A stretch of 64,000 nt of DNA, taken from positions 495 to 64,494 of the forward strand of contig JAHWIN010000011.1 of NCBI GenBank assembly GCA_019322475.1, written 5' to 3'. The DNA comes from Candidatus Woesearchaeota archaeon. GTDB lineage: Archaea > Nanobdellota > Nanobdellia > Woesearchaeales > JACPBV01. The position numbers and the translations under genes are program-made. Shown piece after piece: positions 902 to 62,765 of the stretch. Each line of letters begins with the position of its first letter. The stretch's first letter is position 1. Under the pieces are notes generated by a model. It was not told the DNA's origin and did not search any database. It was given only the letters and a program-made list of their open reading frames with translations.

Positions 902-2335
902 TCACCTGCTGAATATGAGCCCTTCACAATCTCCTTCTTTCTTATTATATTCTTCCTTAAAATCTTCTTTTAGCATGCTTAAAAGCTCACTGGTCTTACC
1001 CAGGCACAACACATCAGATGGTGGGCATGGAAGTATATCACAGCTGTCTATCAATATTGCCTTAGCACCCCCTAATCTGGATTTTAGCTGCGTTATCTTA
1101 TCAGAGTTATAGATCGGATAATAGATAATCTCGTCAGCCTTTTTGTCAGACTCAGAGATAAAGATGGGGTTGCTTATCCAGATTCCGTCTTTAGCTTCAT
1201 TTTTTATGTATTCTTTAAATTCAGGATACTCTTTAAAGTTAGGGAACCTCATGCCTATAGAAGACTGCATGATCAGGGCTGAAACCATAATGGCCAAGAT
1301 GAAAACTGTATTCTTTCTCCTTCCTGCTTTCTTGAACATCTTAACAGCCCCATAAGCAGATATCAGGTAAAGATAAGGCAGGAATGTCAGGGCAAACCTG
1401 GTTTCCTTATGTGCTATAGACATAAAAAATATGAAGAATGCCGCAAAGATCCCCAGTACCAGTGACTTACCCATGTCTTTTTTCTTCAGGATAAAAAAAG
1501 CCCCTATGATGGAAAATAAGGTCATAAGATTCTCTGTAAGCAAAAATTTAAGGTAGAAATGAAAAGGCCTGTGATATATCCACCCTGTATTTTTGGTCAT
1601 GAATGCCTGCAGCAGGAAAGGGTATATTGGGTTTTTATAGGCTGTCAGGTTAAATATCAGGTAAGGTATCGATATAGCAAAAGCGCCGGATAAAAGCATA
1701 GTGATCTTATAGGCTTTTTTATCCCCATGGACCAGGATCATGGCTGCCATCGGGACTATCACAAAAAGTTGCAGGAATCTTGTCATGCAGCTTACCCCCA
1801 CCATCATACCGCTCAATATGTATTTTTCTTTAACAAAGAGATAAACAGCCAGAAGTGCAAAGAATGTCGAAGGTATCCCTGTAAGCAGTGTAGAGCTGTA
1901 GAATAAGAACGTAGGGCTCAATGCAAGGAATAATGCGCCTAAAAGGGCAGAATTTTTATCAAAAGCCTCTTTTCCTATAAGGTAGGTAAGCAATATGCAG
2001 CCTGCCCCAAAACCGATCTCCAGGATTCTTCCCACCAGGAGGGGATTTATCCTGATCTTCCATAGGAACCCAAGGATTATTGGCCATAGCACAGGCCTTG
2101 CAGGCTCCCACAGCCCAGCATGTCCAAGGGAGAATATGTATTTTCCCATCCCCATATAGGCTGCAGAGTCCCATAGGATCCCCCTTTGGAAGATTAGATG
2201 GATTATCTTTATAGTTATGAAAAAGGCAGATATTATGTAAAGTGCTCCTTTCCCTGTACAATTCTTCTTAATCTTCTGCAGAAGATCCATATTCCTTGCA
2301 GTTTTCATCATAGTTATAATATCTGCATATCTCAT
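902..2335 (-). CDS. polytopic membrane glycosyltransferase, ArnT/PMT (GT39/GT83)-like, with a C-terminal soluble domain
   Basis: 477 aa with many predicted TM helices and an ArnT/PMT-like layout. The N-terminal globular domain contains CxxC-like pairs. The family assignment is tentative. Confidence 0.5.
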   Translation of the reverse strand: MRYADIITMMKTARNMDLLQKIKKNCTGKGALYIISAFFITIKIIHLIFQRGILWDSAAYMGMGKYIFSLGHAGLWEPARPVLWPIILGFLWKIRINPLLVGRILEIGFGAGCILLTYLIGKEAFDKNSALLGALFLALSPTFLFYSSTLLTGIPSTFFALLAVYLFVKEKYILSGMMVGVSCMTRFLQLFVIVPMAAMILVHGDKKAYKITMLLSGAFAISIPYLIFNLTAYKNPIYPFLLQAFMTKNTGWIYHRPFHFYLKFLLTENLMTLFSIIGAFFILKKKDMGKSLVLGIFAAFFIFFMSIAHKETRFALTFLPYLYLISAYGAVKMFKKAGRRKNTVFILAIMVSALIMQSSIGMRFPNFKEYPEFKEYIKNEAKDGIWISNPIFISESDKKADEIIYYPIYNSDKITQLKSRLGGAKAILIDSCDILPCPPSDVLCLGKTSELLSMLKEDFKEEYNKKEGDCEGLIFSR

Positions 2336-8318: not shown

Positions 8319-8708
8319 ATGCAGGATTTAAAGGTCAAGCTGGACGGAAAAGATTACGACGTTAAGGTAGAGGAGCTAGACTCTGGAAGGTTGAAGGTAT
8401 ATCTTGATGGGGAATCTTTTGAGGTAGAGACAAGGTCAGACATAGAAAAGCAGCTTTTTGAAGAGGTCAAAAGTTCAGATGATCCAAAAGGAAAAAAGAT
8501 AGTGGCTGCCCCCCTTCCCGGAGCGGTATTTTCTGTATCTGTAAAAGAAGGGGATAAGGTGTCTAAGGGGCAGAAATTGGTAAGCCTTATGGCAATGAAG
8601 ATGGAGAATGAGGTTTGTGCTCCTGTCAAAGGGATTATAAAAGAGATTAAGGTAAAAAAAGGAGATTCTGTCGATAAAGGGGACATCCTCATGCTCTACA
8701 AGGATTGA
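8319..8708 (+). CDS. biotin carboxyl carrier protein (biotin/lipoyl attachment domain)
   Basis: 'LMAMKMENE' matches the A-M-K-M biotinylation motif. The gene is translationally coupled to the upstream carboxyltransferase gene. Confidence 0.8.
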   Translation: MQDLKVKLDGKDYDVKVEELDSGRLKVYLDGESFEVETRSDIEKQLFEEVKSSDDPKGKKIVAAPLPGAVFSVSVKEGDKVSKGQKLVSLMAMKMENEVCAPVKGIIKEIKVKKGDSVDKGDILMLYKD

Positions 8709-8713
8709 CTCTC

Positions 8714-8755
8714 TGATTGCTCAAGCTGGGCACATACCCCTCAGCTTGCTGCGGT
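8714..8755 (+). repeat. 42-nt conserved post-stop element, copy 1 (hairpin plus GCTGCGGT)
   Basis: tgattgctcaagctgg-N11-cccctcagcttgctgcggt starts at the BCCP stop codon. CAAGCTG / CAGCTTG form a 7-bp stem, and a T-run follows. Confidence 0.4.
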
Positions 8756-8909
8756 GGGGATTTTTTATTTTAAGAAGCAGTTAGTTCATTCCACCTGAAT
8801 TCCCTGAGTTTGATCCCCCTTTTTCTTAAGTGCATAGAGATCTCTTCATTCAGTTCAAGCAGGCCCTTAGACTCAGTTAGATAGGCCATCTCCTCTATCT
8901 CTTTTATGT

Positions 8910-9149
8910 TCATTTTTCCTTCTCCCCTGAGGTCTTTCCGAATAATATGCCTGCTAGGACATTAAGGGCCCATGCCTGGAAAACATTGATCTGCAGCTGG
9001 CTGAAATTCTTGAAAACATAGTTCCACAGCCACATTACCGGAAAAGCAAGGATCAATCCCACCAATGCAGACAAAATGATGATAAGAAACATAGTGTATC
9101 CCAACTCAAATATCCTTTTTAATAATGGTGTATTGTCCAAAAAACCCAT
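8910..9149 (-). CDS. small hypothetical membrane protein
   Basis: 79 aa with two hydrophobic helices and no conserved motif. Confidence 0.3.
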   Translation of the reverse strand: MGFLDNTPLLKRIFELGYTMFLIIILSALVGLILAFPVMWLWNYVFKNFSQLQINVFQAWALNVLAGILFGKTSGEKEK

Positions 9150-10449: not shown

Positions 10450-12325
10450 TTTCTCCTGAATTTATCTGCTCCTGCCTCCCGGCCATAGCCCACGCCAAAG
10501 GCATACTCCCTTTCTTTCTCTTTTCCATATGCTGGGAAACAGCTGTGCTTATTATCAGCACCTTCTCTTTTTTGGTAAGGCTGTTTTTCCTTGGCTTCTC
10601 TTTTACAAGCTTCCCTATTATGCCATGCTTTTCTATGAAGCTTGTGGTTATATTGCCTTTGACAAAGCCCTTGCAGTTAAGCACAGCTTTATGGAAAGGG
10701 GCAGTCGTCTCTACGCCTTCTATCATGAACTCATCCAGTGCCCTCTTCATCCTGGCTATGGCTTCATTCCTGTTGGCGCCCTTGCACATTAGTTTAGCTA
10801 TCAAAGAATCATAATGGGGGCTTACAACATGCCCTGTATGGCATGAGCTGCATACCCTTATCCCTGGCCCTCCTGGAGGAAGATAGTTTGTTATTGTGCC
10901 TGTCTGCGGACAAAAATCCTTTGATGGGCACTCTGCATTTATCCTGCACTCTATAGCAGACCCATCTATTTTTATATCCTCCTGCCTGTATGCCAGTTCT
11001 GCGCCTGCAGCAATCTTTATCTGCTCCTTAAGAAGGTCAACACCGGTTATCATCTCAGTTATGCCGTGCTCTACCTGTATCCTTGTGTTCATCTCCATGA
11101 AATAAAAGTTATTCTTGTCGTCAAGAAGGAATTCAACAGTTCCAGCTCCCTCATATTTTACAGATTTCACTATCTGGGTTGCAGCCTTCCCTATGGTCTC
11201 CCTTAATTTTTTGTTTAGGGCAGGGGAAGGTGCCTCTTCTATCAGCTTTTGGTGCCTTCTCTGTATGCTGCAGTCCCTCTCCCCAAGGTGGATAACATTG
11301 CCATGGCTGTCTCCGAGTATCTGGAGTTCTATATGCCTTGGCTCTTCCATGTACTTTTCCATGTACAGCGAATTATCCCCGAAAGAGGCTTCAGCTTCTG
11401 ATCGTGCGCTCTTGAAAGCAGCAGCTATATCTTTTTCATTCCTGACAACCCTCATCCCTTTTCCACCCCCTCCCGATACAGCCTTGATTATAAGCGGATA
11501 ACCTATAATCTTGGCTGATTTTAATGCATCAGCCTCGTCTTTTAATGACCCTCTTCCCATGATAACAGGGATGCCTAGGCTTTTTATGGTCTCTTTTGCC
11601 CTGTCCTTATTGCCCATAAGCACTATTGACTTTGAGGAAGGCCCTACAAACTTGATCCTATTCTGCTCGCATATCCTTGCGAAATCGCTGTTTTCTGAAA
11701 GGAACCCGTATCCAGGATGTATTGCATCTGCATTTGCCTTTTTGGCTATCCTTATTATCCTTTTATAGTCCAGGTAAGAATTAGAGCCCTCCCCCACGCA
11801 ATATTTTTCATCTGCAAACCTTACTGCCAGGGTTTTCTTGTCCTGTTTTGAATATACCACAACTGTTTTTATGCCTAGTTCCCTGCATGCCCTCAGTATC
11901 CTTAATGCTATCTCGCCCCTGTTTGCTATAAGCACCTTCTTGAACAGCTTTTCCCTGCTTACCTTGGTATACTCCTTTTCCTCTTCTACATTGGTCAATC
12001 CTTTAGCGAGCATATCCAGGAAGGATTTGGATGATCTGTCTTTGATTATCTTGTTGATCTGGCTTTCAGTAAGGTTAGGGAGCTTTTTTGCAAAGTTCTT
12101 TGCTATAAGGTCCCCAAACCCGTTTATATCAGGATTATGCATCAGTTTTTCATCTTTCTCTAGGGTAACTAGATGTGATTTTATTATCTTCTCTATCTCA
12201 TTGCATATATAAGGGACCCTGTCGTGGGTTTTCTTAGCTACCCTTTTCAGAAAGCCATAGCTCTTTGCCATCGGCAGAAGCAGCTTGTTTACAGTATCTG
12301 CCACCCTTCTCTCTGTGCTTCCCAT
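10442..12325 (-). CDS. biotin carboxylase subunit (AccC/PycA-like, ATP-grasp)
   Basis: 'KVLIANRGEIALRILRACRELGI', 'GGGGKGMRVV', 'EMNTRIQVEH' and 'SPHYDSLIAKL' mark the biotin carboxylase domains. The tracked ORF adds a ~130-aa N-terminal stretch, so the true start may be an internal Met. Confidence 0.85.
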   Translation of the reverse strand: MGSTERRVADTVNKLLLPMAKSYGFLKRVAKKTHDRVPYICNEIEKIIKSHLVTLEKDEKLMHNPDINGFGDLIAKNFAKKLPNLTESQINKIIKDRSSKSFLDMLAKGLTNVEEEKEYTKVSREKLFKKVLIANRGEIALRILRACRELGIKTVVVYSKQDKKTLAVRFADEKYCVGEGSNSYLDYKRIIRIAKKANADAIHPGYGFLSENSDFARICEQNRIKFVGPSSKSIVLMGNKDRAKETIKSLGIPVIMGRGSLKDEADALKSAKIIGYPLIIKAVSGGGGKGMRVVRNEKDIAAAFKSARSEAEASFGDNSLYMEKYMEEPRHIELQILGDSHGNVIHLGERDCSIQRRHQKLIEEAPSPALNKKLRETIGKAATQIVKSVKYEGAGTVEFLLDDKNNFYFMEMNTRIQVEHGITEMITGVDLLKEQIKIAAGAELAYRQEDIKIDGSAIECRINAECPSKDFCPQTGTITNYLPPGGPGIRVCSSCHTGHVVSPHYDSLIAKLMCKGANRNEAIARMKRALDEFMIEGVETTAPFHKAVLNCKGFVKGNITTSFIEKHGIIGKLVKEKPRKNSLTKKEKVLIISTAVSQHMEKRKKGSMPLAWAMAGRQEQINSGENA

Positions 12326-12836: not shown

Positions 12837-13991
12837 ATGGATTTTACATTTACGCCAGAGCAGTCAGCTATAAAGAAGATGATCACAGAGTTTGTAGACT
12901 CTGAAGTCAAGCCTTATGCAGATGATGCAGATAAGGAAGAGATATTCCCTGAAGAGCAGATAGGCAAGCTGGCTAAGCTCGGAATCATGGGCATGTCTAT
13001 ACCTAAGAAGTATGGCGGGACCGAGCTGGATAATGTTTCTCAGACTATAATAATGGAAGAGGTCAGCAGGGGCTGCAGCGCAACAGCAGTCACTATGGGC
13101 GCACATTCAAGTCTTGCATGCCATCCTATAGTCAATTTTGGCACTGAAGAACAGAAAAAAAGGTTTCTGCCAAAACTCGCTTCTGGGGAATATTTAGGTG
13201 CATTTGCCCTTACAGAGCCCAATGCAGGAAGCGACGCAGTCAATGTCCAGACTACCGCAGTTCGTGAAAAAGATAATTACATAATAAACGGAAATAAGAT
13301 CTTCATTACAAACGGCGGTAAAGCAGACCTCATAAACATAGTGGCTACGACCGACAGGGGCAAAAAGCACCATGGCCTGAGCATATTTGCTGTAGAGGCA
13401 AAAAAGGCTAAGGGATTCAGCCTCGGCAAAAAAGAGGATAAGCTTGGCCTGAGGGGCTCCAATACCCAGGAGCTCGTCTTTGAGGATATGGAGATCCCAA
13501 AGGAAAACCTTATTGGGGGTATTGAAGGTGAGGGGTTTAAGATAGCTATGAGCGTTTTCAACTCAGGGAGGATAGGCATAGGCGTCCAGGGAGTTGGCAT
13601 TGCCCAGGCTGCTTTTGACGAAGCCTTGAGGTATGTCCAGGAGAGGGAGCAGTTCGGCAGGAAGCTCCATAAGTTCCAGGCTTTGCAGTTCATGCTTTCA
13701 GATATGGCAGTTAGGATAGATGCTGCAAGGCTTTTGTGCTATAGGGCAGCGCATACTAAAGATAAGGGAAAAAGGTATGTAAAAGATGCTGCTATGGCAA
13801 AGGTGTATGGCTCAGAGACAGCCATGGATGTGGCAAGAAAAGCCCTACAGATACACGGCGGCTACGGCTATATCAAGGATTACCCTCTGGAAAGGTTTTA
13901 CAGGGACGCCAAGATAACAGAGATCTATGAGGGCACGTCTGAAGTGCAGAGGCTCGTTATAGCAGCAGAGCTTTTAGGCAGGGGCTTTTGA
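12837..13991 (+). CDS. acyl-CoA dehydrogenase (short/medium-chain type)
   Basis: Full-length ACAD fold. The C-terminal '[13 protein letters not shown]' contains the catalytic-Glu signature. Confidence 0.85.
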
Positions 13992-14061
13992 ATAAACGAA
14001 AAGAGATAACATCTGGGCTATACCAGAACTATAAGATTAGAGGATCAGGCACACGATCAAA

Positions 14062-14856
14062 ATGAAAATAATAGTATGTATCAAGCAGGTTCCTGACACT
14101 AATAAGGTAAAGATAAACCCTAAGACAGGAACATTGGTCAGGGAAGGGGTCAAGGCGATAATGAACCCCGAGGATAAGCATGCTTTGATAGAGGCAGTAA
14201 GGATAAAGAAGGATCATGGCGCTAAGGTGGCTGCCCTTTCTATGGGCCCCCCTCAGGCAGAAGATGTATTGAGGGAAGCATTGGCCCTGGGTGCAGACGA
14301 AGCCATATTATTGTGCGATAGGGCATTTGCAGGCTCAGACACATGGGCAACAGCAAATGCCATAGGTGCAGCTGTAAGGTCTATCGGGGATTGTAGCTTA
14401 TTGTTGTTTGGAAGGCAGGCTATAGACGGAGACACAGCCCAGGTTGGCCCCCAGGTAGCAGAGTTTCTTAACATGCCTCAGATAACATATGCCCGGAAGA
14501 TAGAGATTATCGGTGATAAGGTGAGGGTTGAAAGGCAGATGGAAGACGGCTACGAGATAATAGAGTCAAAGATGCCCTGCCTTATAACCTGCATGGAAGA
14601 GCTAAACAAGATGGAATATCCTTCTTTGGGCGGCATAAGGGAAGCATATATGGAAAAAAAGGTAAATGTTCTTGGGATGAAAGACATAGGTGCGGACAGC
14701 TCAACTGTAGGGCTGCTAAGCTCTCCCACCTCTGTAAAAAGATCATTCACCCCTCCGCCAAAAGGCAGCGGCCAGATGATAAAAGGCTCTGCCAAAGAGG
14801 CTGCAGATAAGATAGTTTCTTTATTGAAAGAGAAAGAGATGGTAGGTGCATTCTGA
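14062..14856 (+). CDS. etfB: electron transfer flavoprotein, beta subunit
   Basis: 'MKIIVCIKQVPD' is the EtfB N-terminal signature, and the gene is ATGA-coupled to etfA. Confidence 0.8.
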   Translation: MKIIVCIKQVPDTNKVKINPKTGTLVREGVKAIMNPEDKHALIEAVRIKKDHGAKVAALSMGPPQAEDVLREALALGADEAILLCDRAFAGSDTWATANAIGAAVRSIGDCSLLLFGRQAIDGDTAQVGPQVAEFLNMPQITYARKIEIIGDKVRVERQMEDGYEIIESKMPCLITCMEELNKMEYPSLGGIREAYMEKKVNVLGMKDIGADSSTVGLLSSPTSVKRSFTPPPKGSGQMIKGSAKEAADKIVSLLKEKEMVGAF

Positions 14857-16028
14857 TGGTAAAGGCAAGGCTGTCTATGAACTGCCCTGAAACCCAGCTT
14901 AACCTGGGAGGCATAGTCTTGATAAAGGGAAATGATTTTGAGGACATCCCTGATCTGCCTGAGGTTCAGCAGGCCATAGCTAATGGCTATTTAGAGGTCC
15001 TTGCTGAAAAGAAGAAAGAGGGACCCAAGGAAAAAAAAGAAGGCAGCGAGATCCTGGTATTTGCAGAGCAAAGGAACGGCAGGATAGCAAGAGTAGTCTT
15101 TGAGCTTTTGGGAAAAGCAGGGGAATTGGCAGATAAGTTAGGGGTAAATACAGCAGCCATACTTTTGGCAGATAAGGATGATGGCTTAAGCAAAGAGATC
15201 ATAAGTTACGGAGCAGATAAGGTTTATCTTGCTCGATCACCTTTATTAAAAGACTACCAGACAGGCTTATATGCAAAATCAATATCAAAACATATACAGG
15301 ATACAAAGCCCCAGATAGTCCTTTATGGAGCGACACACATAGGAAGGGATTTGGCCCCCAGGATAGCCCAAAGGCTCGGCACAGGATTGACAGCAGACTG
15401 TACAGATCTGAGCATCACTGATGAGGGTTTGTTGTTGCAGACAAGGCCCGCATTTGGGGGAAACCTTATGGCTCAGATAATATGCAAAAAGCACAGGCCC
15501 CAGATGTCCACAGTAAGGCCGGGAGTCATGAAGATAAAGGAAAAGGATGAAAGCAGAAAAGGGGAGGTGGTAGCTATAACTCCAGATATCTCTGAAAAAG
15601 ACAGGCTCACAACTCTTGTAAAGGTGATAAAAGAGGCAAAAAAGAAAGTAAACCTTGAGGAAGCTGATATTATAGTTGCTGGAGGCAGGGGCCTTGGAAA
15701 AAAGGAAAATTTTAAGCTTATAACTGATCTTGCAGCCATTCTTAATGCAGAGGTTGGAGCTTCAAGAGCTGCTGTAGATTCAGGCTGGATATCCAAAGAC
15801 CACCAGGTTGGGCAGACCGGAAAGACAGTACGGCCTAAGCTCTATATTGCAGTAGGCATCTCAGGAGCTATCCAGCACAAGGCTGGGATGCAGGACTCCA
15901 GTTTGATAATAGCAATAAACAAGGATTCAGAAGCACCTATATTCGAGGTGGCAGATTACGGGATAGTTGGGGATCTGTTCCAGGTAGTTCCAGAGGTCAT
16001 AAGCAGGCTGAAGCAGGAAAAAGTGTAA
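14856..16028 (+). CDS. etfA: electron transfer flavoprotein, alpha subunit (with a ~65-aa N-terminal extension)
   Basis: 'ILVFAEQRNG' and the FAD-binding 'GISGAIQHKAGM' segment are EtfA hallmarks. The start codon overlaps the etfB stop. Confidence 0.8.
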   Translation: MVKARLSMNCPETQLNLGGIVLIKGNDFEDIPDLPEVQQAIANGYLEVLAEKKKEGPKEKKEGSEILVFAEQRNGRIARVVFELLGKAGELADKLGVNTAAILLADKDDGLSKEIISYGADKVYLARSPLLKDYQTGLYAKSISKHIQDTKPQIVLYGATHIGRDLAPRIAQRLGTGLTADCTDLSITDEGLLLQTRPAFGGNLMAQIICKKHRPQMSTVRPGVMKIKEKDESRKGEVVAITPDISEKDRLTTLVKVIKEAKKKVNLEEADIIVAGGRGLGKKENFKLITDLAAILNAEVGASRAAVDSGWISKDHQVGQTGKTVRPKLYIAVGISGAIQHKAGMQDSSLIIAINKDSEAPIFEVADYGIVGDLFQVVPEVISRLKQEKV

Positions 16029-16125
16029 GCTGATTCTTTATATGATGTCGTTTCTAAAAGTGATATTCTAAAGTACCAGTCCAGTGATAAGTGCTTCTAT
16101 AGTACAGTAGCACCCTGTTTGCCGC

Positions 16126-16893
16126 GTGCGGCATACAGAGTGCCACCGTACTGCTATAATCTCTGGATGTTATCCTGCCTATATGCTTAAAAGCCAAATA
16201 ACCATAAGTTTTATAATGAAAATAAGCTTTTCTAACATTATGATTCATCCTATACAGAGGCTTATAGTCCCCCCTTTATTGAAATTGGTGTGGGTAAAGG
16301 AGATAAAAGGCATAGAGAACATTCCAAGGGATGGGCTTTTTGTGGTTACGCCTAATCATCAGAGCTTTTTCGATGACTGGCTTGTCCCAAGCATAATCAT
16401 GCCTTATCTAGGCAAAGAGCTCCATATGTATGTAAACAGGAACTATTTTAAGAACAGGCTCTTTAGGATGTACTGTAACCACCATAAGTGTATCCCTGTT
16501 GAGGTTCATGAAAGCAGGGATAAAAAAGAGCTTAATGAAGCAGCGTTCCAGAAAGCCCTGTACTACTTAAGAAAAAAAGAGCCGATATGCATATATCCTG
16601 AAGGCCACAGGAGCTTTGATGGAGAGCTGCAAAAGGCAAAAGTAGGTGCTGCAAGGCTGGCGATAGCTGCTAAGGTTCCTGTGCTGCCTGTAGGAATATC
16701 AGGGTCAAGAGAGGTTTTGCCTAAAGACAAGTCATTCCCCTCCCTTAAAAGAAAGATCAGCATAATCATAGGAAAGCCGATACAATTAAATAACTATTAT
16801 GGCCACGAGGATGATAGAATGGCTTTAAAGGAAGCAACAGCCTTGATCATGAAAGAGATAGCAGGATTGATAGGCAAGGAGTATAATTATTAA
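16126..16893 (+). CDS. PlsC-family lysophospholipid/1-acyl-sn-glycerol-3-phosphate acyltransferase
   Basis: HX4D acyltransferase motif 'NHQSFFDDW' and 'YPEGHRS' block. The true start is probably the internal Met near 'MKISFSN'. Confidence 0.65.
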   Translation: MRHTECHRTAIISGCYPAYMLKSQITISFIMKISFSNIMIHPIQRLIVPPLLKLVWVKEIKGIENIPRDGLFVVTPNHQSFFDDWLVPSIIMPYLGKELHMYVNRNYFKNRLFRMYCNHHKCIPVEVHESRDKKELNEAAFQKALYYLRKKEPICIYPEGHRSFDGELQKAKVGAARLAIAAKVPVLPVGISGSREVLPKDKSFPSLKRKISIIIGKPIQLNNYYGHEDDRMALKEATALIMKEIAGLIGKEYNY

Positions 16894-16894
16894 G

Positions 16895-17527
16895 ATGGAC
16901 TACCCTATATGGGGGCGTATAATCCCCCCAGTCATTGGATTATGGATAAAAAAGATAAATGGGCTAGAGAACATACCAAAAACAGGAGGCCTTGTAGTAT
17001 CTGCTAATCATTCAAGCTACCTTGACCATCTGATGATATCTTCCATAGTCGTTAAGTATTCAGGAAGGAAGATCCATTACCTTGCAAAGAAAGAGCACTT
17101 CGAAAAATTTTTCCAGAGGCTTTGGCATAAGAATGTCGGAGCAATCCCGATAGATCGCCAGTCAGGAGGCAAAGAGGCATTAAATACCGCAGTTAAATAT
17201 TTAAATGATGGAAAGATAATAGGGGTATATCCTGAAGGGACAAGGACGCTTACAGGAAAGCTTCAAAGGGCAAGGACCGGGGCTGCCAGGCTTGCCTTAG
17301 CAGCTAAGGTTCCTGTTTTGCCTATAGGCCTTATAGGTACATTTGATATAATGCCCAAAGGCCAGCACTACCCTAAGATGAAAAGGGCAGTAGTAAATAT
17401 CGGAAAGCCCCTTTATTTTAAGGAGTATTATGGAAAAGAAGAGGATAAGGCGATAATAAGGTTGGTGACCACTAAGATAATGAGGGAGATTGCCTCATTA
17501 TGCGGGCAAAGATATGAGTTTGATTAA
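16895..17527 (+). CDS. PlsC-family 1-acyl-sn-glycerol-3-phosphate acyltransferase (second paralogue)
   Basis: 'NHSSYLDHL' (HX4D), 'YPEGTRT' and 'PVLPIG' acyltransferase blocks. Confidence 0.7.
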   Translation: MDYPIWGRIIPPVIGLWIKKINGLENIPKTGGLVVSANHSSYLDHLMISSIVVKYSGRKIHYLAKKEHFEKFFQRLWHKNVGAIPIDRQSGGKEALNTAVKYLNDGKIIGVYPEGTRTLTGKLQRARTGAARLALAAKVPVLPIGLIGTFDIMPKGQHYPKMKRAVVNIGKPLYFKEYYGKEEDKAIIRLVTTKIMREIASLCGQRYEFD

Positions 17528-17528
17528 G

Positions 17529-18503
17529 ATGAAAATAGCGGTTATAGGTGCAGGAGGATGGGGAACGACCCTCGCCAATCTTTTGGCTGAAAAGAACAAG
17601 GATGTTACCCTGTGGGCTCTTGAAAAAGAGGTAGTTGACGAGATAAGCTCTAAAAGGGAAAATTCACGGTTTCTACCGGGAATAAAGCTTCTTGGAAACA
17701 TCACCCCAACAAATGATCTGGAAGATGCCGTTACTGATAAGGATTTTATCATAACTGCAATACCCTCTTCATTCATTAGGGGGATGGCAAAAGAGATGTC
17801 CCGGTTTATCAGCCCGGATACTATTGTAATATCTGTGACAAAAGGCCTCGAAGACATGACATTCAAGAGGATGTCAGAGATCCTGGAAGACGAATTAAAA
17901 AACAGGGTAATCGCATTGTCCGGCCCCAATCACGCAGAGGAGGTCAGCAGGAAGATACCTACAGCGACAGTCATAGCATCCAAACATTCAGGCATCCTTC
18001 CTAAGGCCAAGGCAGTCCTGGAAACCCCTTATTTTAAGGTTTACCCTCATGACGATGTCGTAGGGATAGAGATATGCGGCGCAGTCAAGAATATAACTGC
18101 TATAGCCATAGGCGTTTGTGATGCCCTTAAATTAGGCGACAATGCAAAAGCGTCTATAATAACATTGGGCCTTACCGAGATGAGCCGGGTAGGAAGATTT
18201 TTTGGGGCAAAAAGGGCAACATTCTACGGCTTAGCCGGAGTAGGCGACCTTATAGCTACATGCACCTCAAAGCATTCCCGGAATAGGTTTGTAGGGGAAA
18301 GGATTGCAGAGGGAAAATCATTTGAAGATATAAGGGAAGAGATGCACGGAATGGTTGCAGAAGGAATAAGGGCAGCAAAGTCTGTTTATGATCTGGCAAA
18401 AAAAGAGGACATAGACCTCCCTTTGACAACCCAGGTCTATAAGGTCCTCTATGAGAAAAAAGACCTGAAAAAAGCCATAAACGACCTTATTACCCTCATC
18501 TGA
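17529..18503 (+). CDS. gpsA: NAD(P)H-dependent glycerol-3-phosphate dehydrogenase (GpsA; makes the bacterial-type sn-G3P backbone)
   Basis: 'MKIAVIGAGGWGTTLANLL' is the GpsA Rossmann signature and the protein is GpsA-like throughout. Start placed at ATG 17529; the tracked ORF begins at 17490. Confidence 0.8.
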   Translation: MKIAVIGAGGWGTTLANLLAEKNKDVTLWALEKEVVDEISSKRENSRFLPGIKLLGNITPTNDLEDAVTDKDFIITAIPSSFIRGMAKEMSRFISPDTIVISVTKGLEDMTFKRMSEILEDELKNRVIALSGPNHAEEVSRKIPTATVIASKHSGILPKAKAVLETPYFKVYPHDDVVGIEICGAVKNITAIAIGVCDALKLGDNAKASIITLGLTEMSRVGRFFGAKRATFYGLAGVGDLIATCTSKHSRNRFVGERIAEGKSFEDIREEMHGMVAEGIRAAKSVYDLAKKEDIDLPLTTQVYKVLYEKKDLKKAINDLITLI

Positions 18504-62176: not shown

Positions 62177-62515
62177 ATGGCGTGTGTATTTTGTTTGTAC
62201 GTTTGTATTGATTCAACAAGACTGGAGGGGATTTCAATGCTGAAGATGAAAAGGATTTCAGAAACATATGATATGAAGGTATTTACAGATACAGGGGATT
62301 ATTTCGGTGATATTGAAGAGTCTATACTTGCTACAAATAAGGTTTTCGGATGGAGGGTAAAGGCCACAAAGAACTCCTTTTTGACAAAGGTTCTTGGTTC
62401 AGCAAAAGGCGTTATAGTGCCTCACCAGTTGGTAAAGGCAATAGGTGACATCCTTATCATAAGCAAGGCAGCTGTTCCTTCTTATTCAGGTGAAGAGGGA
62501 GAAGCACATTCATGA
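62177..62515 (+). CDS. small PRC-barrel-like protein
   Basis: 'MKVFTDTGDYFGDIEESIL...GVIVPHQ' has beta-barrel-like periodicity. The true start is probably at the internal 'MLKMKR'. Confidence 0.35.
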   Translation: MACVFCLYVCIDSTRLEGISMLKMKRISETYDMKVFTDTGDYFGDIEESILATNKVFGWRVKATKNSFLTKVLGSAKGVIVPHQLVKAIGDILIISKAAVPSYSGEEGEAHS

Positions 62516-62516
62516 T

Positions 62517-62558
62517 TGATTGCTCAAACTGGATACCTGCCTCTCAGCTTGCTGCGGT
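62517..62558 (+). repeat. 42-nt conserved post-stop element, copy 2
   Basis: tgattgctcaaactgg-N11-cctctcagcttgctgcggt starts at the stop codon of the 62177..62515 ORF. It is near-identical to copy 1. Confidence 0.4.
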
Positions 62559-62663
62559 TTGAACTATCTCATCCTTAACAGCCTATCTTTATCTGTAGGG
62601 CATGTTTTCTTAGCCCTCCATTTTGCTAAAATATTTAAACTAACCCTTTCTACTTTACTGTAT

Positions 62664-62765
62664 ACGGCAGTGGTCTAGTGGCTATGATTCGAGCTTCCCA
62701 AGCTCGCTACCCGGGAGATTGCAGCCTTTCGCTGCAATCCGGGGATTCAAGTCCCGGCTGCCGTA
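62664..62765 (+). tRNA. intron-containing tRNA (anticodon arm reads CCC, i.e. Gly, with a ~28-nt insertion between the anticodon stem and T-arm)
   Basis: Acceptor ACGGCAG / CTGCCGT, extended to 10 bp by flanking TAT / ATA. D-loop AGTGG. Anticodon arm CGAGC-TTCCCAA-GCTCG. T-arm CCGGGG-ATTCAAG-TCCCGG. A 32-nt segment containing the GATTGCAGC / GCTGCAATC hairpin sits where a 4-5-nt variable loop is expected. Duplicated CCGGG at both junctions. Confidence 0.55.

What the first reader, a model, noticed from the sequence alone, without database searches (positions are those of the whole stretch)
8714..8755. Conserved 42-nt element placed immediately after stop codons of two unrelated genes (second copy at 62517..62558)
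The sequences tgattgctcaagctgg-N11-cccctcagcttgctgcggt (after the BCCP gene) and tgattgctcaaactgg-N11-cctctcagcttgctgcggt (after the gene at 62177..62515) are about 85% identical. Both begin at the TGA stop codon and both can form a 7-bp hairpin (CAAGCTG / CAGCTTG) followed by GCTGCGGT. They have the same orientation relative to the upstream gene. This suggests a shared 3'-UTR motif: a terminator, an RNA-stability or processing signal, or the binding site of an RNA-binding protein.
Basis: seen in the sequence. Interest (0 to 1): 0.5.

Follow-up and report, generated by a model that had tools for sequence, protein, structure and literature searches.

The report
Decayed copies of an archaeal intergenic repeat
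The two look-alike 42-base stretches are a shortened copy and a decayed copy of a roughly 100-base hairpin-forming repeat that has been copied into gaps between genes in Woesearchaeota archaea; it resembles a transcription stop signal and is not in the RNA-family library searched.

Summary
The repeat is real: 8714-8755 and 62517-62558 are 36/42 identical (BLAST E 2.6e-5 within the window). Several details were wrong. The spacer is 8 nt, not 11. The real stop codons lie 5 nt and 1 nt upstream. Copy 2's hairpin has an A.C mismatch.

A metagenome scan found about 20 distinct loci carrying a 100-107 nt element in archaeal contigs. One sits in the same carboxylase operon as copy 1. The element has:
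- an 11-bp outer helix around a CGCAG-CUUG-CUGCG hairpin;
- an A-tract, a second CUUG hairpin and a U-tract, which looks like a bidirectional terminator.

Covariation supports this fold. Rfam, phage, plasmid and viral searches found nothing.

Copy 1 (8713-8769) is a recurrent short form that lost about 49 nt between the two hairpins. It folds into a 19-bp imperfect hairpin followed by U6. Copy 2 (62516 to about 62611) is a decayed full-length copy.

Orthologous sites in relatives are empty. Identical copies sit at unrelated loci, in both orientations, and beside gene starts as well as stops.

Best reading: a mobile, REP/MITE/PATE-like structured repeat, with terminator action inferred. How it moves is unknown.

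The parts
8713..8769 (+). Copy 1: the short form of the repeat. It comprises the 5' flank pentanucleotide CTGAT, the 5' arm TGCTCAAGCTGGG, a small GGG/CCC hairpin, one CUUG-loop hairpin (CUCAG-CUUG-CUGCG, with a U.C mismatch), GGGG and T6ATT.
   Evidence: R1 25.5 bits, E 4.6e-4 over 8712-8783; aligns with the short forms L088, L048 and L039; about 49 nt between the two hairpins of the full-length element are missing. MFE -21.5 kcal/mol, z -2.7, a 19-bp imperfect hairpin followed by U6.
8714..8755 (+).
8761..8769 (+). T-run (TTTTTTATT) ending copy 1. It directly abuts TTA 8770-8772, the stop codon of the convergent 47-aa ORF on the - strand.
62516..62611 (+). Copy 2: a decayed full-length copy. 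It keeps the 5' flank TTGAT, the 5' arm TGCTCAAACTGG, the hairpin CUCAG-CUUG-CUGCG, a remnant of the 3' arm (GTTTGA), a CCTTAACA remnant of GCTTAAAAA, and a degenerate second hairpin with TGTTTTC.
   Evidence: R1 16.5 bits, E 0.07, aligned over all 103 model positions, 62515-62608. (about 100 nt extra relative to L022, L024 and L028). (z -0.3, no stable fold).
62517..62558 (+).

Best explanation
The two stretches are copies of a small non-coding repeat family of Woesearchaeota (DPANN archaea). The repeat has been copied into intergenic gaps.

The intact element is 100-107 nt and has two modules. Module 1 is an 11-bp helix (CUCAAAYUGRG / CYCARUUUGAG) enclosing a CGCAG-CUUG-CUGCG hairpin. Module 2 is an A-tract, CCC, a second CRCAG-CUUG-CUGYG hairpin, a 3-nt bulge, GGG and a U-tract. 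Module 2 has the shape of a bidirectional intrinsic terminator.

Window copy 1 is a recurrent short form. The segment between the two hairpin repeats has been lost, leaving one hairpin plus U6. Copy 2 is a full-length copy whose 3' two-thirds has decayed.

Shown:
- family membership;
- the covarying fold;
- empty orthologous sites in relatives;
- identical copies at unrelated loci;
- both orientations relative to neighbouring genes.

Inferred:
- In transcripts, the hairpin plus U-tract of copy 1 defines or protects the 3' end of the carboxyltransferase-BCCP mRNA.
- Copy 2 is probably inert spacer.
- The family spreads by a hairpin-dependent mechanism. The leading candidate is single-strand (HUH / IS200-IS605-type) transposition next to a T(G/T)AT motif.
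- Recombination between the hairpin repeats produces the short forms.
For: Family:
- A metagenome scan with two 8- and 12-nt anchors gave 72 loci, of which 24 hits (17-20 distinct loci) share the whole element.

Fold:
- RNAalifold recovers the two-module structure.
- On the 14-sequence alignment A4, 93% of cells pair and 7 pairs show double changes. The covariation score is 0.153 against 0.092 in shuffles (0/500 reach it) and at most 0.088 when the partners are slid.
- L032 folds at -40.4 kcal/mol, z -7.6.

Window copies fit the model:
- R1 scores 25.5 bits (E 4.6e-4) and 16.5 bits (E 0.07). No other convincing hit turned up in 64 kb with filters off; the next best scores 13 bits at E 0.5.
- The short form recurs independently in L088, L048 and L039.

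Insertion:
- In relatives, BCCP and the convergent 47-aa ORF overlap or abut (L014, L017, L019). The window has a 61-nt spacer made of the element.
- In L022, L024 and L028 the PRC-barrel gene runs straight into the tRNA promoter. The window has about 100 nt extra.
- A third filled/empty pair: L105 has the element between two tandem pilin genes that overlap in L108.

Copying:
- L032, L075 and L095 carry the same core sequence, as far as compared (about 100 nt), with unrelated flanks. L057 has two copies in 7.5 kb.

Hairpins as break points:
- L108 and L109 differ by a 276-nt indel bounded by two hairpin copies.

IS200/IS605-like traits:
- The two similar hairpins lie on one strand.
- By eye there are no terminal inverted repeats and no clear target duplication.
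- The 5' flank is TTGAT (13), TTTAT (6) or a near variant (3), and the 3' end is TTTAT/TTAAT.

Hosts are archaeal:
- The carboxyltransferase in L033 is 66% identical to the window's.
- An archaeal histone lies next to the element in L053. ORFs that read by eye as ribosomal protein L34e and replication factor C lie next to it in L068 and L048.
Against: - No transposase or recombinase was found linked to the hairpins in the roughly 860 kb held. No autonomous partner is known.
- The copy number per genome is unknown. The rest of the source genome could not be reached and is not among the GTDB representatives scanned.
- The conserved TTGAT/TTTAT could simply be part of the element rather than a target.
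- G.U versus A.C counts (16 vs 10) do not identify a functional strand.
- Termination is not shown. Archaeal RNA polymerase does not need hairpins (my own background knowledge, not from a tool). Hairpin-plus-T sites are not clearly enriched in the window: 29 against 21 +/- 4 in shuffles.
- Relatives manage without any element at the same junctions.
- The anchors of the scan fixed 20 nt, so conservation at those positions is by construction.
Confidence: 0.7

Rival explanations
1. It is a dedicated, selected 3'-UTR signal (terminator, stability or protein-binding site) kept after particular genes, not a mobile repeat.
For: - Both window copies, and L032, L033, L048, L068 and L075, lie 0-78 nt after a stop codon in the + orientation.
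- The diverged L108/L109 short form also follows a stop codon directly.
- There is a hairpin plus U-tract in copy 1 and in module 2 of every full copy.
- The CUUG loop is conserved in the second hairpin, which the scan did not constrain. This hints at a sequence-specific binder.
Against: - The element is absent from the orthologous junctions in all relatives examined.
- It is in the reverse orientation after the stops of robust genes: the DEAD-box helicase in L057 (identified by eye), the 492-aa protein in L073, and pilin A in L105.
- It is adjacent to gene starts in about 10 loci and lies between divergent genes in L060.
- Copies at unrelated loci are 100% identical.
- Copy 2 has lost both structure and U-tract.
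Confidence: 0.13
2. On the opposite strand the element is a portable terminator-promoter-5'UTR cassette, or a small RNA gene, that drives the gene next to its TTGCTCAA end. It would supply a TATA-like TTTTTAAG and even the start codon (TTG AGC AAT = Met-Ser-Asn).
For: - In L046, L051/L105 and L073, pilin-like genes with class III signal peptides (MSNK[GA]Q...) begin at the TTG inside the reverse complement of TTGCTCAA. There is no room for another promoter.
- Homologous pilins elsewhere start with ordinary ATG leaders, and in L108 the pilin overlaps the upstream pilin gene.
- Further - strand genes start 0-82 nt from that end: the nucleotidyltransferase in L074 and the histone in L053.
- The reverse strand folds as strongly as the forward strand (-43.1 kcal/mol, z -8.0).
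Against: - Neither window copy has an ORF reading out of that end (5 and 11 codons).
- Most copies have none either.
- No Shine-Dalgarno-like sequence lies before the TTG (by eye).
- The TATA resemblance is weak and untested.
- In L089 the linked pilin ORF is cut to 43 aa in the assembly.
- The flanks upstream of the element are not conserved, so there is no external promoter for a small RNA gene.
Confidence: 0.1
3. The two copies are attL/attR of a 54-kb integrated element next to the tRNA gene.
For: They are direct repeats in the same orientation, 53.8 kb apart, and copy 2 lies about 105 nt upstream of tRNA-Gly.
Against: - The repeat does not overlap the tRNA.
- The genes on both sides of copy 1 form one conserved cluster (carboxyltransferase, BCCP, small ORFs, thioesterase, BirA, biotin carboxylase, and further on ETF). 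This cluster is syntenic in relatives that lack the element.
- The same element occurs singly at many unrelated loci elsewhere.
Confidence: 0.01
4. The similarity is due to chance.
For: Only two copies exist in the window.
Against: The pair has E 2.6e-5. About 20 further loci share the sequence well beyond the anchors used to find them, with covarying helices.
Confidence: 0.005

Closest known systems
Bacterial REP / BIME / REPIN elements mobilised by RAYT transposases (PMC2817692, PMC3116915, PMC3337134)
   Same: Both are short extragenic hairpin-forming repeats. Both sit mostly just outside coding regions near gene ends, in either orientation, and are modular. REPs have been proposed to act on mRNA 3' ends and termination (bioRxiv 10.64898/2026.03.23.713779).
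   Different: The hosts here are archaeal. There is no GTAG-type head. The two hairpins are in direct, not inverted, orientation. No RAYT gene was found. The copy number is unknown, whereas REPs typically exceed 100 per genome.
PATEs, the gene-less derivatives of IS200/IS605 elements (PMC3119063; PMC10055086)
   Same: Both have two similar subterminal hairpins on the same strand, no terminal inverted repeats and no evident target duplication. A conserved pentanucleotide lies just 5' of the left end (TTGAT/TTTAT), and a similar one forms the 3' end. From memory, TTGAT is the target motif of ISDra2.
   Different: No TnpA or TnpB partner with matching ends was found. The extra 11-bp helix around the left hairpin and the A-tract/U-tract pairing are not features I know from IS200/IS605 ends. 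The cleavage sites are untested.
Bacterial-type intrinsic (bidirectional) terminators
   Same: Module 2, and copy 1, is a G+C-rich hairpin followed by 5-6 U. In full copies an A-tract precedes the hairpin, so the opposite strand also reads hairpin plus U-run. At least one gene 3' end abuts the element in most loci.
   Different: The sequence, including the loop, is conserved across loci and genomes, which terminators do not need. Copies also lie beside gene starts and inside an operon. From my own knowledge, archaeal termination relies on oligo-U rather than hairpins.
ERIC, BOX, Correia and classical MITEs (from my own knowledge, no paper read here)
   Same: All are modular non-coding repeats of about 100 nt in transcribed intergenic regions. 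They have deletion variants and strong RNA folds, and can carry promoter or terminator activity.
   Different: This element has no terminal inverted repeats and no TA or other clear target duplication. There is no sequence similarity to those families.

Membership tests
Any Rfam 15 RNA family | Covariance-model match at or near the gathering score | tested here: not met
   There were no matches at gathering score in the window. Only noise appeared at E<=10 around copy 1, and around copy 2 nothing covered the element. There was nothing at E<=1 in four loci with full-length copies.
Classical MITE | Terminal inverted repeats | tested here: not met
   The 5' end TGCTCAAAYTG and the reverse complement of the 3' end (AATAAAAAATCCC) are unrelated, by inspection. 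No repeat-finding tool was run on this point.
Classical MITE | Target-site duplication that differs from copy to copy | tested here: inconclusive
   The flanks read T(G/T)AT(T) at the 5' side and TT(T/A)AT(T) at the 3' end in nearly all copies. The same sequence appears at every site, and the 5' G is never matched at the 3' end. It therefore looks like element sequence or a fixed target, not a duplication.
Classical MITE / any mobile repeat | Multiple near-identical copies at unrelated loci, plus filled and empty orthologous sites | tested here: met
   Identical cores in L032, L075 and L095 with different flanks. Three filled/empty comparisons.
REP / RAYT system | Imperfect palindrome preceded by a conserved GT[AG]G head (feature recalled from memory) | tested here: not met
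   Hairpins are present, but they are preceded by ACTC/CCC, not GTAG.
REP / RAYT system | More than 100 copies per genome and a RAYT gene flanked by REPs (PMC2817692) | not testable with these tools
No Y1 transposase appears among the Pfam-annotated genes of the fetched loci.
IS200/IS605-derived PATE | Similar subterminal hairpins at both ends on the same strand | tested here: met
   CGCAG-CTTG-CTGCG and CRCAG-CTTG-CTGYG, both on the + strand, in every full copy.
IS200/IS605-derived PATE | Insertion 3' of a conserved 4-5 nt motif, with a related motif at the right end | tested here: inconclusive
   The 5' flank is TTGAT 13, TTTAT 6 and variants 3. The 3' end is TTTAT/TTAAT. This is compatible, but a target cannot be told from element sequence without closely related empty sites.
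IS200/IS605-derived PATE | An autonomous partner (TnpA and/or TnpB) with the same ends | tested here: not met
   The hairpin motif occurs only inside the small elements in all loci held. This is a small sample, so absence is weak.
Intrinsic terminator | G+C-rich hairpin immediately followed by a U-run, downstream of a gene | tested here: met
   Copy 1 forms a hairpin followed by U6. Module 2 does so in all full copies. Copy 2 does not meet this feature.
Intrinsic terminator | Transcripts actually end there | not testable with these tools
   No transcriptome data were available.
Integron attC site | RYYYAAC / GTTRRRY core sites (recalled from memory), arrays of cassettes, and an integrase | tested here: not met
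   By inspection there are no core sites in the element. The copies are single and lie among housekeeping genes.

The most novel reading that the evidence does not exclude
The family is a miniature single-strand (HUH / IS200-IS605-type) transposon of DPANN archaea. It lands exactly on gene junctions next to TTGAT/TTTAT. It brings its own stop codon, a TTG start codon and a bidirectional terminator, so it can split overlapping genes and rewire operons. Examples are the carboxylase operon in L033 and the tandem pilin genes in L105. The conserved CUUG hairpins would be the binding sites of a transposase not yet identified.
Probability: 0.25. Interest if true: 0.6.

Novelty: new member of a known kind. 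Interest (0 to 1): 0.4.

Why it matters
- I know of no described small repeat families in DPANN archaea, and one search for papers mentioning both Woesearchaeota and miniature inverted-repeat elements found none.
- Woesearchaeota genomes are tiny and tightly packed. A 100-nt repeat that survives only when it fills the whole gap between two genes is therefore informative. It sometimes donates the stop codon of one gene or the start codon of the next. It shows how such genomes tolerate and perhaps use mobile DNA.
- The element marks sites of recombination, as in the L108/L109 indel and the short forms.
- It can mislead gene callers: P0184 is a pilin predicted with 35 residues translated from the element.
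- For the window itself the practical conclusion is modest. Copy 1 probably helps end the carboxylase operon transcript. Copy 2 is a relic.

Tried and rejected
The spacer is N8.
- ARAGORN and Rfam at gathering score find no RNA gene in the window.
- Rfam in E-value mode finds nothing for the element.
- The scan of GTDB representative genomes gave 12 hits in unrelated bacteria and one methanogen, about the number I estimated for chance. None has the hairpin context, and the source genome is not in that collection.
- The 'third copy' at 15875-15906 lies in the ETF-alpha coding sequence and is chance.
- attL/attR of a 54-kb island is rejected because synteny runs across copy 1.
- I considered a split-tRNA half, a tRNA fragment, a C/D-box sRNA, a K-turn, a bulge-helix-bulge site, known ribozyme cores and integron attC by reading the sequence. 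The defining motifs are absent.
- The 30-nt insertion in the neighbouring tRNA (GATTGCAGC-CTTTC-GCTGCAATC...GGGGA) looked related to the element. The similarity is not significant: 149 of 2000 shuffles, and 11% of all window segments, score as well.
- No recurrent transposase-like ORF flanks the family loci (all-vs-all BLAST). Pfam on neighbouring ORFs shows ordinary archaeal genes.
- Phage, plasmid and IMG/VR searches are negative.
- G.U versus A.C counting gave no strand call.
- The simple terminator scan shows no clear enrichment and misses copy 1.
- Literature searches found no description of such an element.

Full report
**Observation.**
The window carries TGATTGCTCAAGCTGG-GCACATAC-CCCTCAGCTTGCTGCGGT at 8714-8755 and TGATTGCTCAAACTGG-ATACCTGC-CTCTCAGCTTGCTGCGGT at 62517-62558. 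Both are on the + strand and are 36/42 identical without gaps.

The pair has a blastn-short E-value of 2.6e-5 within the window, and no other segment rises above noise.

Three details of the finding are wrong:
- The variable spacer is 8 nt, not 11.
- The genes stop at TGA 8706-8708 and TGA 62513-62515, which are 5 nt and 1 nt before the element's own TGA.
- The 7-bp hairpin has an A.C mismatch in copy 2.

An inverted partial match at 15875-15906 lies inside the ETF-alpha coding sequence and is chance.

**Source and local context.**
The BCCP protein is 100% identical to a protein of a Candidatus Woesearchaeota MAG, on a contig of 64,661 nt.

Copy 1 lies between the convergent BCCP gene (8319-8708, +) and a conserved 47-aa ORF (8770-8913, -). 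The whole 61-nt spacer is made up of three parts:
- CTCTC;
- the 42-mer;
- GGGGATTTTTTATT.

In relatives with about 70% identical BCCP and the same gene order (L014-L020), the two genes overlap by 6 nt or are 2 nt apart. There is no element.

Copy 2 lies between a highly conserved PRC-barrel gene and tRNA-Gly(CCC). In L022, L024 and L028 the same gene runs almost directly into the conserved tRNA promoter (ATATTTAAAC). The window has about 100 extra nucleotides there. Both copies are therefore lineage-specific insertions.

**Finding the family.**
A scan of one genome per GTDB species with TGATTGCTCN{24,32}GCTTGCTGCGG gave only 12 hits, in unrelated bacteria and one methanogen. That is about the number I estimated for chance, and the source genome was not among them.

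A metagenome scan with TTGCTCAAN{14,22}CAGCTTGCTGCG gave 72 loci. The hits with the window's spacing (37 or 38 nt) share far more than the anchors. Their common sequence is:

tttGA TTGCTCAAAyTGAGTTCATACTC CGCAGCTTGCTGCG atatcacaa CTCArTTTGAG GCTTAAAAAtCCC CACAGCTTGCTGTG ATT GGGATTTTTtAtt

That is 100-107 nt in 17-20 distinct loci. The hosts are archaeal:
- In L033 the element sits between a carboxyltransferase 66% identical to the window's and its BCCP gene.
- An archaeal histone lies next to the element in L053.
- By eye, ORFs next to it in L068 and L048 read as ribosomal protein L34e and replication factor C.

**Structure.**
RNAalifold on 15 sequences predicts two modules:
- Module 1 is an 11-bp helix (CUCAAAYUGRG / CYCARUUUGAG) enclosing a CGCAG-CUUG-CUGCG hairpin.
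- Module 2 is a CCC/GGG helix, extended in my model by A-tract/U-tract pairing, enclosing a second CRCAG-CUUG-CUGYG hairpin with a 3-nt bulge.

I tested this structure on alignment A4 (14 sequences):
- 93% of cells pair.
- 7 pairs show changes on both sides. One example is column 15/61, with C-G in 7 sequences, U-A in 5, A-U in 1 and U-G in 1.
- The covariation score is 0.153, against 0.092 +/- 0.011 in shuffles (0 of 500 reach it).
- It is at most 0.088 when the partners are slid.

L032 folds at -40.4 kcal/mol (z -7.6) on the + strand and -43.1 (z -8.0) on the - strand. G.U versus A.C counts (16 vs 10) do not identify a functional strand.

The CUUG loop of the second hairpin was not constrained by the scan, yet it is conserved in 11 of 14 sequences. 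This suggests sequence-specific recognition.

The element has no match in Rfam 15, phage records, plasmid records or IMG/VR.

**How the window copies relate to the family.**
A covariance model (R1) run without filters finds the two copies and no other convincing hit in 64 kb; the next best scores 13 bits at E 0.5.
- The match at 8712-8783 scores 25.5 bits, E 4.6e-4.
- The match at 62515-62608 scores 16.5 bits, E 0.07, aligned across the whole model.

Alignment A5 shows that copy 1, L088, L048 and L039 are the same short form. They keep the 5' part up to the first hairpin and then jump to GGGATTTTTT. About 49 nt between the two direct repeats of the hairpin are missing.

Copy 2 keeps the following parts, and the rest is decayed (z -0.3):
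- the 5' 45 nt;
- a remnant of the 3' helix arm (GTTTGA);
- a remnant of GCTTAAAAA (CCTTAACA);
- a degenerate second hairpin.

In it UCUCU pairs with GGGGA, and AUUGC with GCGGU. The stem is followed by U6 (-21.5 kcal/mol, z -2.7).

Both window copies carry CTCAG where the family has CGCAG. This weakens the family hairpin. In copy 1 an A-to-G change in the 5' arm makes the alternative hairpin perfect.

**Evidence that the family is copied around.**
- L032, L075 and L095 have the same core sequence, as far as compared (about 100 nt), but unrelated flanks. L057, L079 and L080 form a second near-identical group.
- L057 has a second copy 2 kb away with a different 5' part. L079 has a partial one.
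- A third filled/empty comparison came from a type IV pilus locus. In L108 two tandem pilin genes overlap (ATGGATAA). In L105 the element, in reverse orientation, fills the gap between the stop of the first pilin and the Lys-Gly-Gln of the second.
- L108 and L109 are otherwise near-identical contigs. They differ by a 276-nt indel bounded by two hairpin-bearing short copies. The hairpin repeats are therefore break points for recombination, as in the short forms.

**Context census.**
This covers about 20 distinct loci, with the element written on the + strand.
- A + strand gene stops 0-78 nt before the 5' end in the window (twice), L032, L033, L048, L068 and L075. In L033 the element's TGA is itself the stop codon.
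- A - strand gene stops 0-65 nt after the 3' end in window copy 1, L057 (by eye a DEAD-box helicase), L073, L046, L095, L079 and L105.
- A - strand gene starts 0-82 nt from the 5' end in about 10 loci.
- In L046, L051/L105 and L073, pilin-like genes with class III signal peptides begin at the TTG inside the reverse complement of TTGCTCAA (Met-Ser-Asn-Lys-Gly/Ala-Gln). Homologues elsewhere have ordinary ATG leaders.
- L060 lies between divergent genes.

The element is thus tolerated exactly at gene junctions in either orientation, and often makes up the entire intergenic region. This argues against a strictly strand-specific 3'-UTR signal. It fits a compact genome in which only junction insertions survive.

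**Mechanism.**
Shown: a covarying two-hairpin element, insertion polymorphism, and identical copies at unrelated loci.

Inferred, function:
- Module 2 reads as hairpin plus U5-6 on both strands, so it should act as a bidirectional terminator or 3'-end protector.
- Copy 1 keeps the + strand half of this and probably ends or stabilises the carboxyltransferase-BCCP transcript.
- Copy 2 is probably inert.

Inferred, spread:
- There are two similar hairpins on one strand.
- By eye there are no terminal inverted repeats and no variable target duplication.
- The 5' flank is TTGAT (13), TTTAT (6) or a near variant (3), and the 3' end is TTTAT/TTAAT.
- These features recall the gene-less derivatives (PATEs) of IS200/IS605 elements. 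Those have subterminal top-strand palindromes and a transposon-adjacent motif (PMC10055086; PMC3119063).
- No transposase partner was found in the sequence held, so this remains a lead.

**Comparison with known systems.**
In behaviour the family resembles bacterial REP/BIME/REPIN elements (PMC2817692, PMC3116915). It differs in lacking their GTAG head, their inverted pairing and a RAYT gene.

It shares no sequence with any Rfam family. One search for papers mentioning both Woesearchaeota and miniature inverted-repeat elements found none, and a broader search on DPANN, terminators and hairpins turned up nothing relevant.

I rate it a new member of a known kind, namely small structured intergenic repeats. 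The window holds only a truncated copy and a decayed copy.

**Limits.**
- The rest of the source genome could not be searched, so the copy number is unknown.
- The scan anchors fixed 20 nt, so conservation at those positions is by construction.
- Flanking gene calls in the metagenome loci are ORF-based, and only some were checked with Pfam.
- No expression data were available.

Noticed in passing
window 62664-62765 (+): tRNA-Gly (anticodon CCC) carries a 30-nt insertion in the T arm, by my parsing after position 53. The inserted sequence is AGATTGCAGCCTTTCGCTGCAATCCGGGGA. ARAGORN and the whole-window Rfam scan at gathering score miss the gene. It scores 38 bits in E-value mode. In L022, L024 and L028 the same tRNA has an insertion at a different place in the T arm with unrelated sequence. 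L024 and L028 also have an insertion after the anticodon. This suggests intron turnover at one tRNA gene.
   Followed up: partly
L108 12160-12500 versus L109 12160-12225: Two near-identical contigs differ by a 276-nt indel bounded by two diverged short copies of the hairpin element (CCC-YGYAGCTTGCTGYG-...-GGGAG.TTCATT). The first copy starts right at the stop codon of a 93-aa gene.
   Followed up: partly
L033 1943-2045 (-) and the same locus in L040: In another Woesearchaeote a full-length element sits inside the carboxylase operon. Its TGA is the stop codon of the carboxyltransferase, and BCCP starts 240 nt further on. In the window the two genes are 1 nt apart.
   Followed up: yes
L105 10012-10118 (-); proteins P0184 and P0190: The element is inserted between two tandem pilin genes of a type IV pilus locus. 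Gene callers predict a 166-aa pilin (P0184) whose first 35 residues are a translation of the element. The likely real start is the TTG inside the element. In L089 the same pilin ORF is cut to 43 aa.
   Followed up: yes
window 8770-8913 (-) and 8910-9149 (-): Two small ORFs (47 aa and 79 aa) lie convergent to BCCP. They are conserved in size and position in all relatives fetched and have no Pfam family.
   Followed up: no
L032 about 10660-10680 and L033 about 1755-1775 (-): A second shared motif, TTTAATGCGCTG(G/T)GAAAGC, lies about 80-190 nt downstream of the element at two unrelated loci.
   Followed up: no
L014 18037-18095 (-): This is a minimal relative of the element. Its sequence is TTTGATTAGCTCGAACTT-GAGA-AAGTTCGAGGTCTTAAAAAAC-CTCTTA-GTTTTTT. 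It has the same ends and A/U-tract layout but no CUUG hairpins (25 bits, E 0.0055). The superfamily may be broader than the anchors could find.
   Followed up: no
L057 20-80: The second copy in L057 has its 5' arm replaced by an unrelated 17-bp perfect hairpin (AAAACGATTTGCTCTTG...CAAGAGCAAATCGTTTT) directly before the first CUUG hairpin.
   Followed up: no
window 12837-18503: The window encodes acyl-CoA dehydrogenase, ETF beta and alpha, two acyltransferase-like ORFs and an ORF that looks by eye like glycerol-3-phosphate dehydrogenase (GpsA). These lie next to the biotin carboxylase, carboxyltransferase, BCCP and BirA genes. The relatives' Pfam labels support the dehydrogenase, ETF, acyltransferase, biotin carboxylase, carboxyltransferase, BCCP and BirA calls. 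GpsA was not tested.
   Followed up: no
L001 (Logan contig SRR14699982_242013): The independent Logan assembly of the same sample breaks about 100 nt after copy 1.
   Followed up: no
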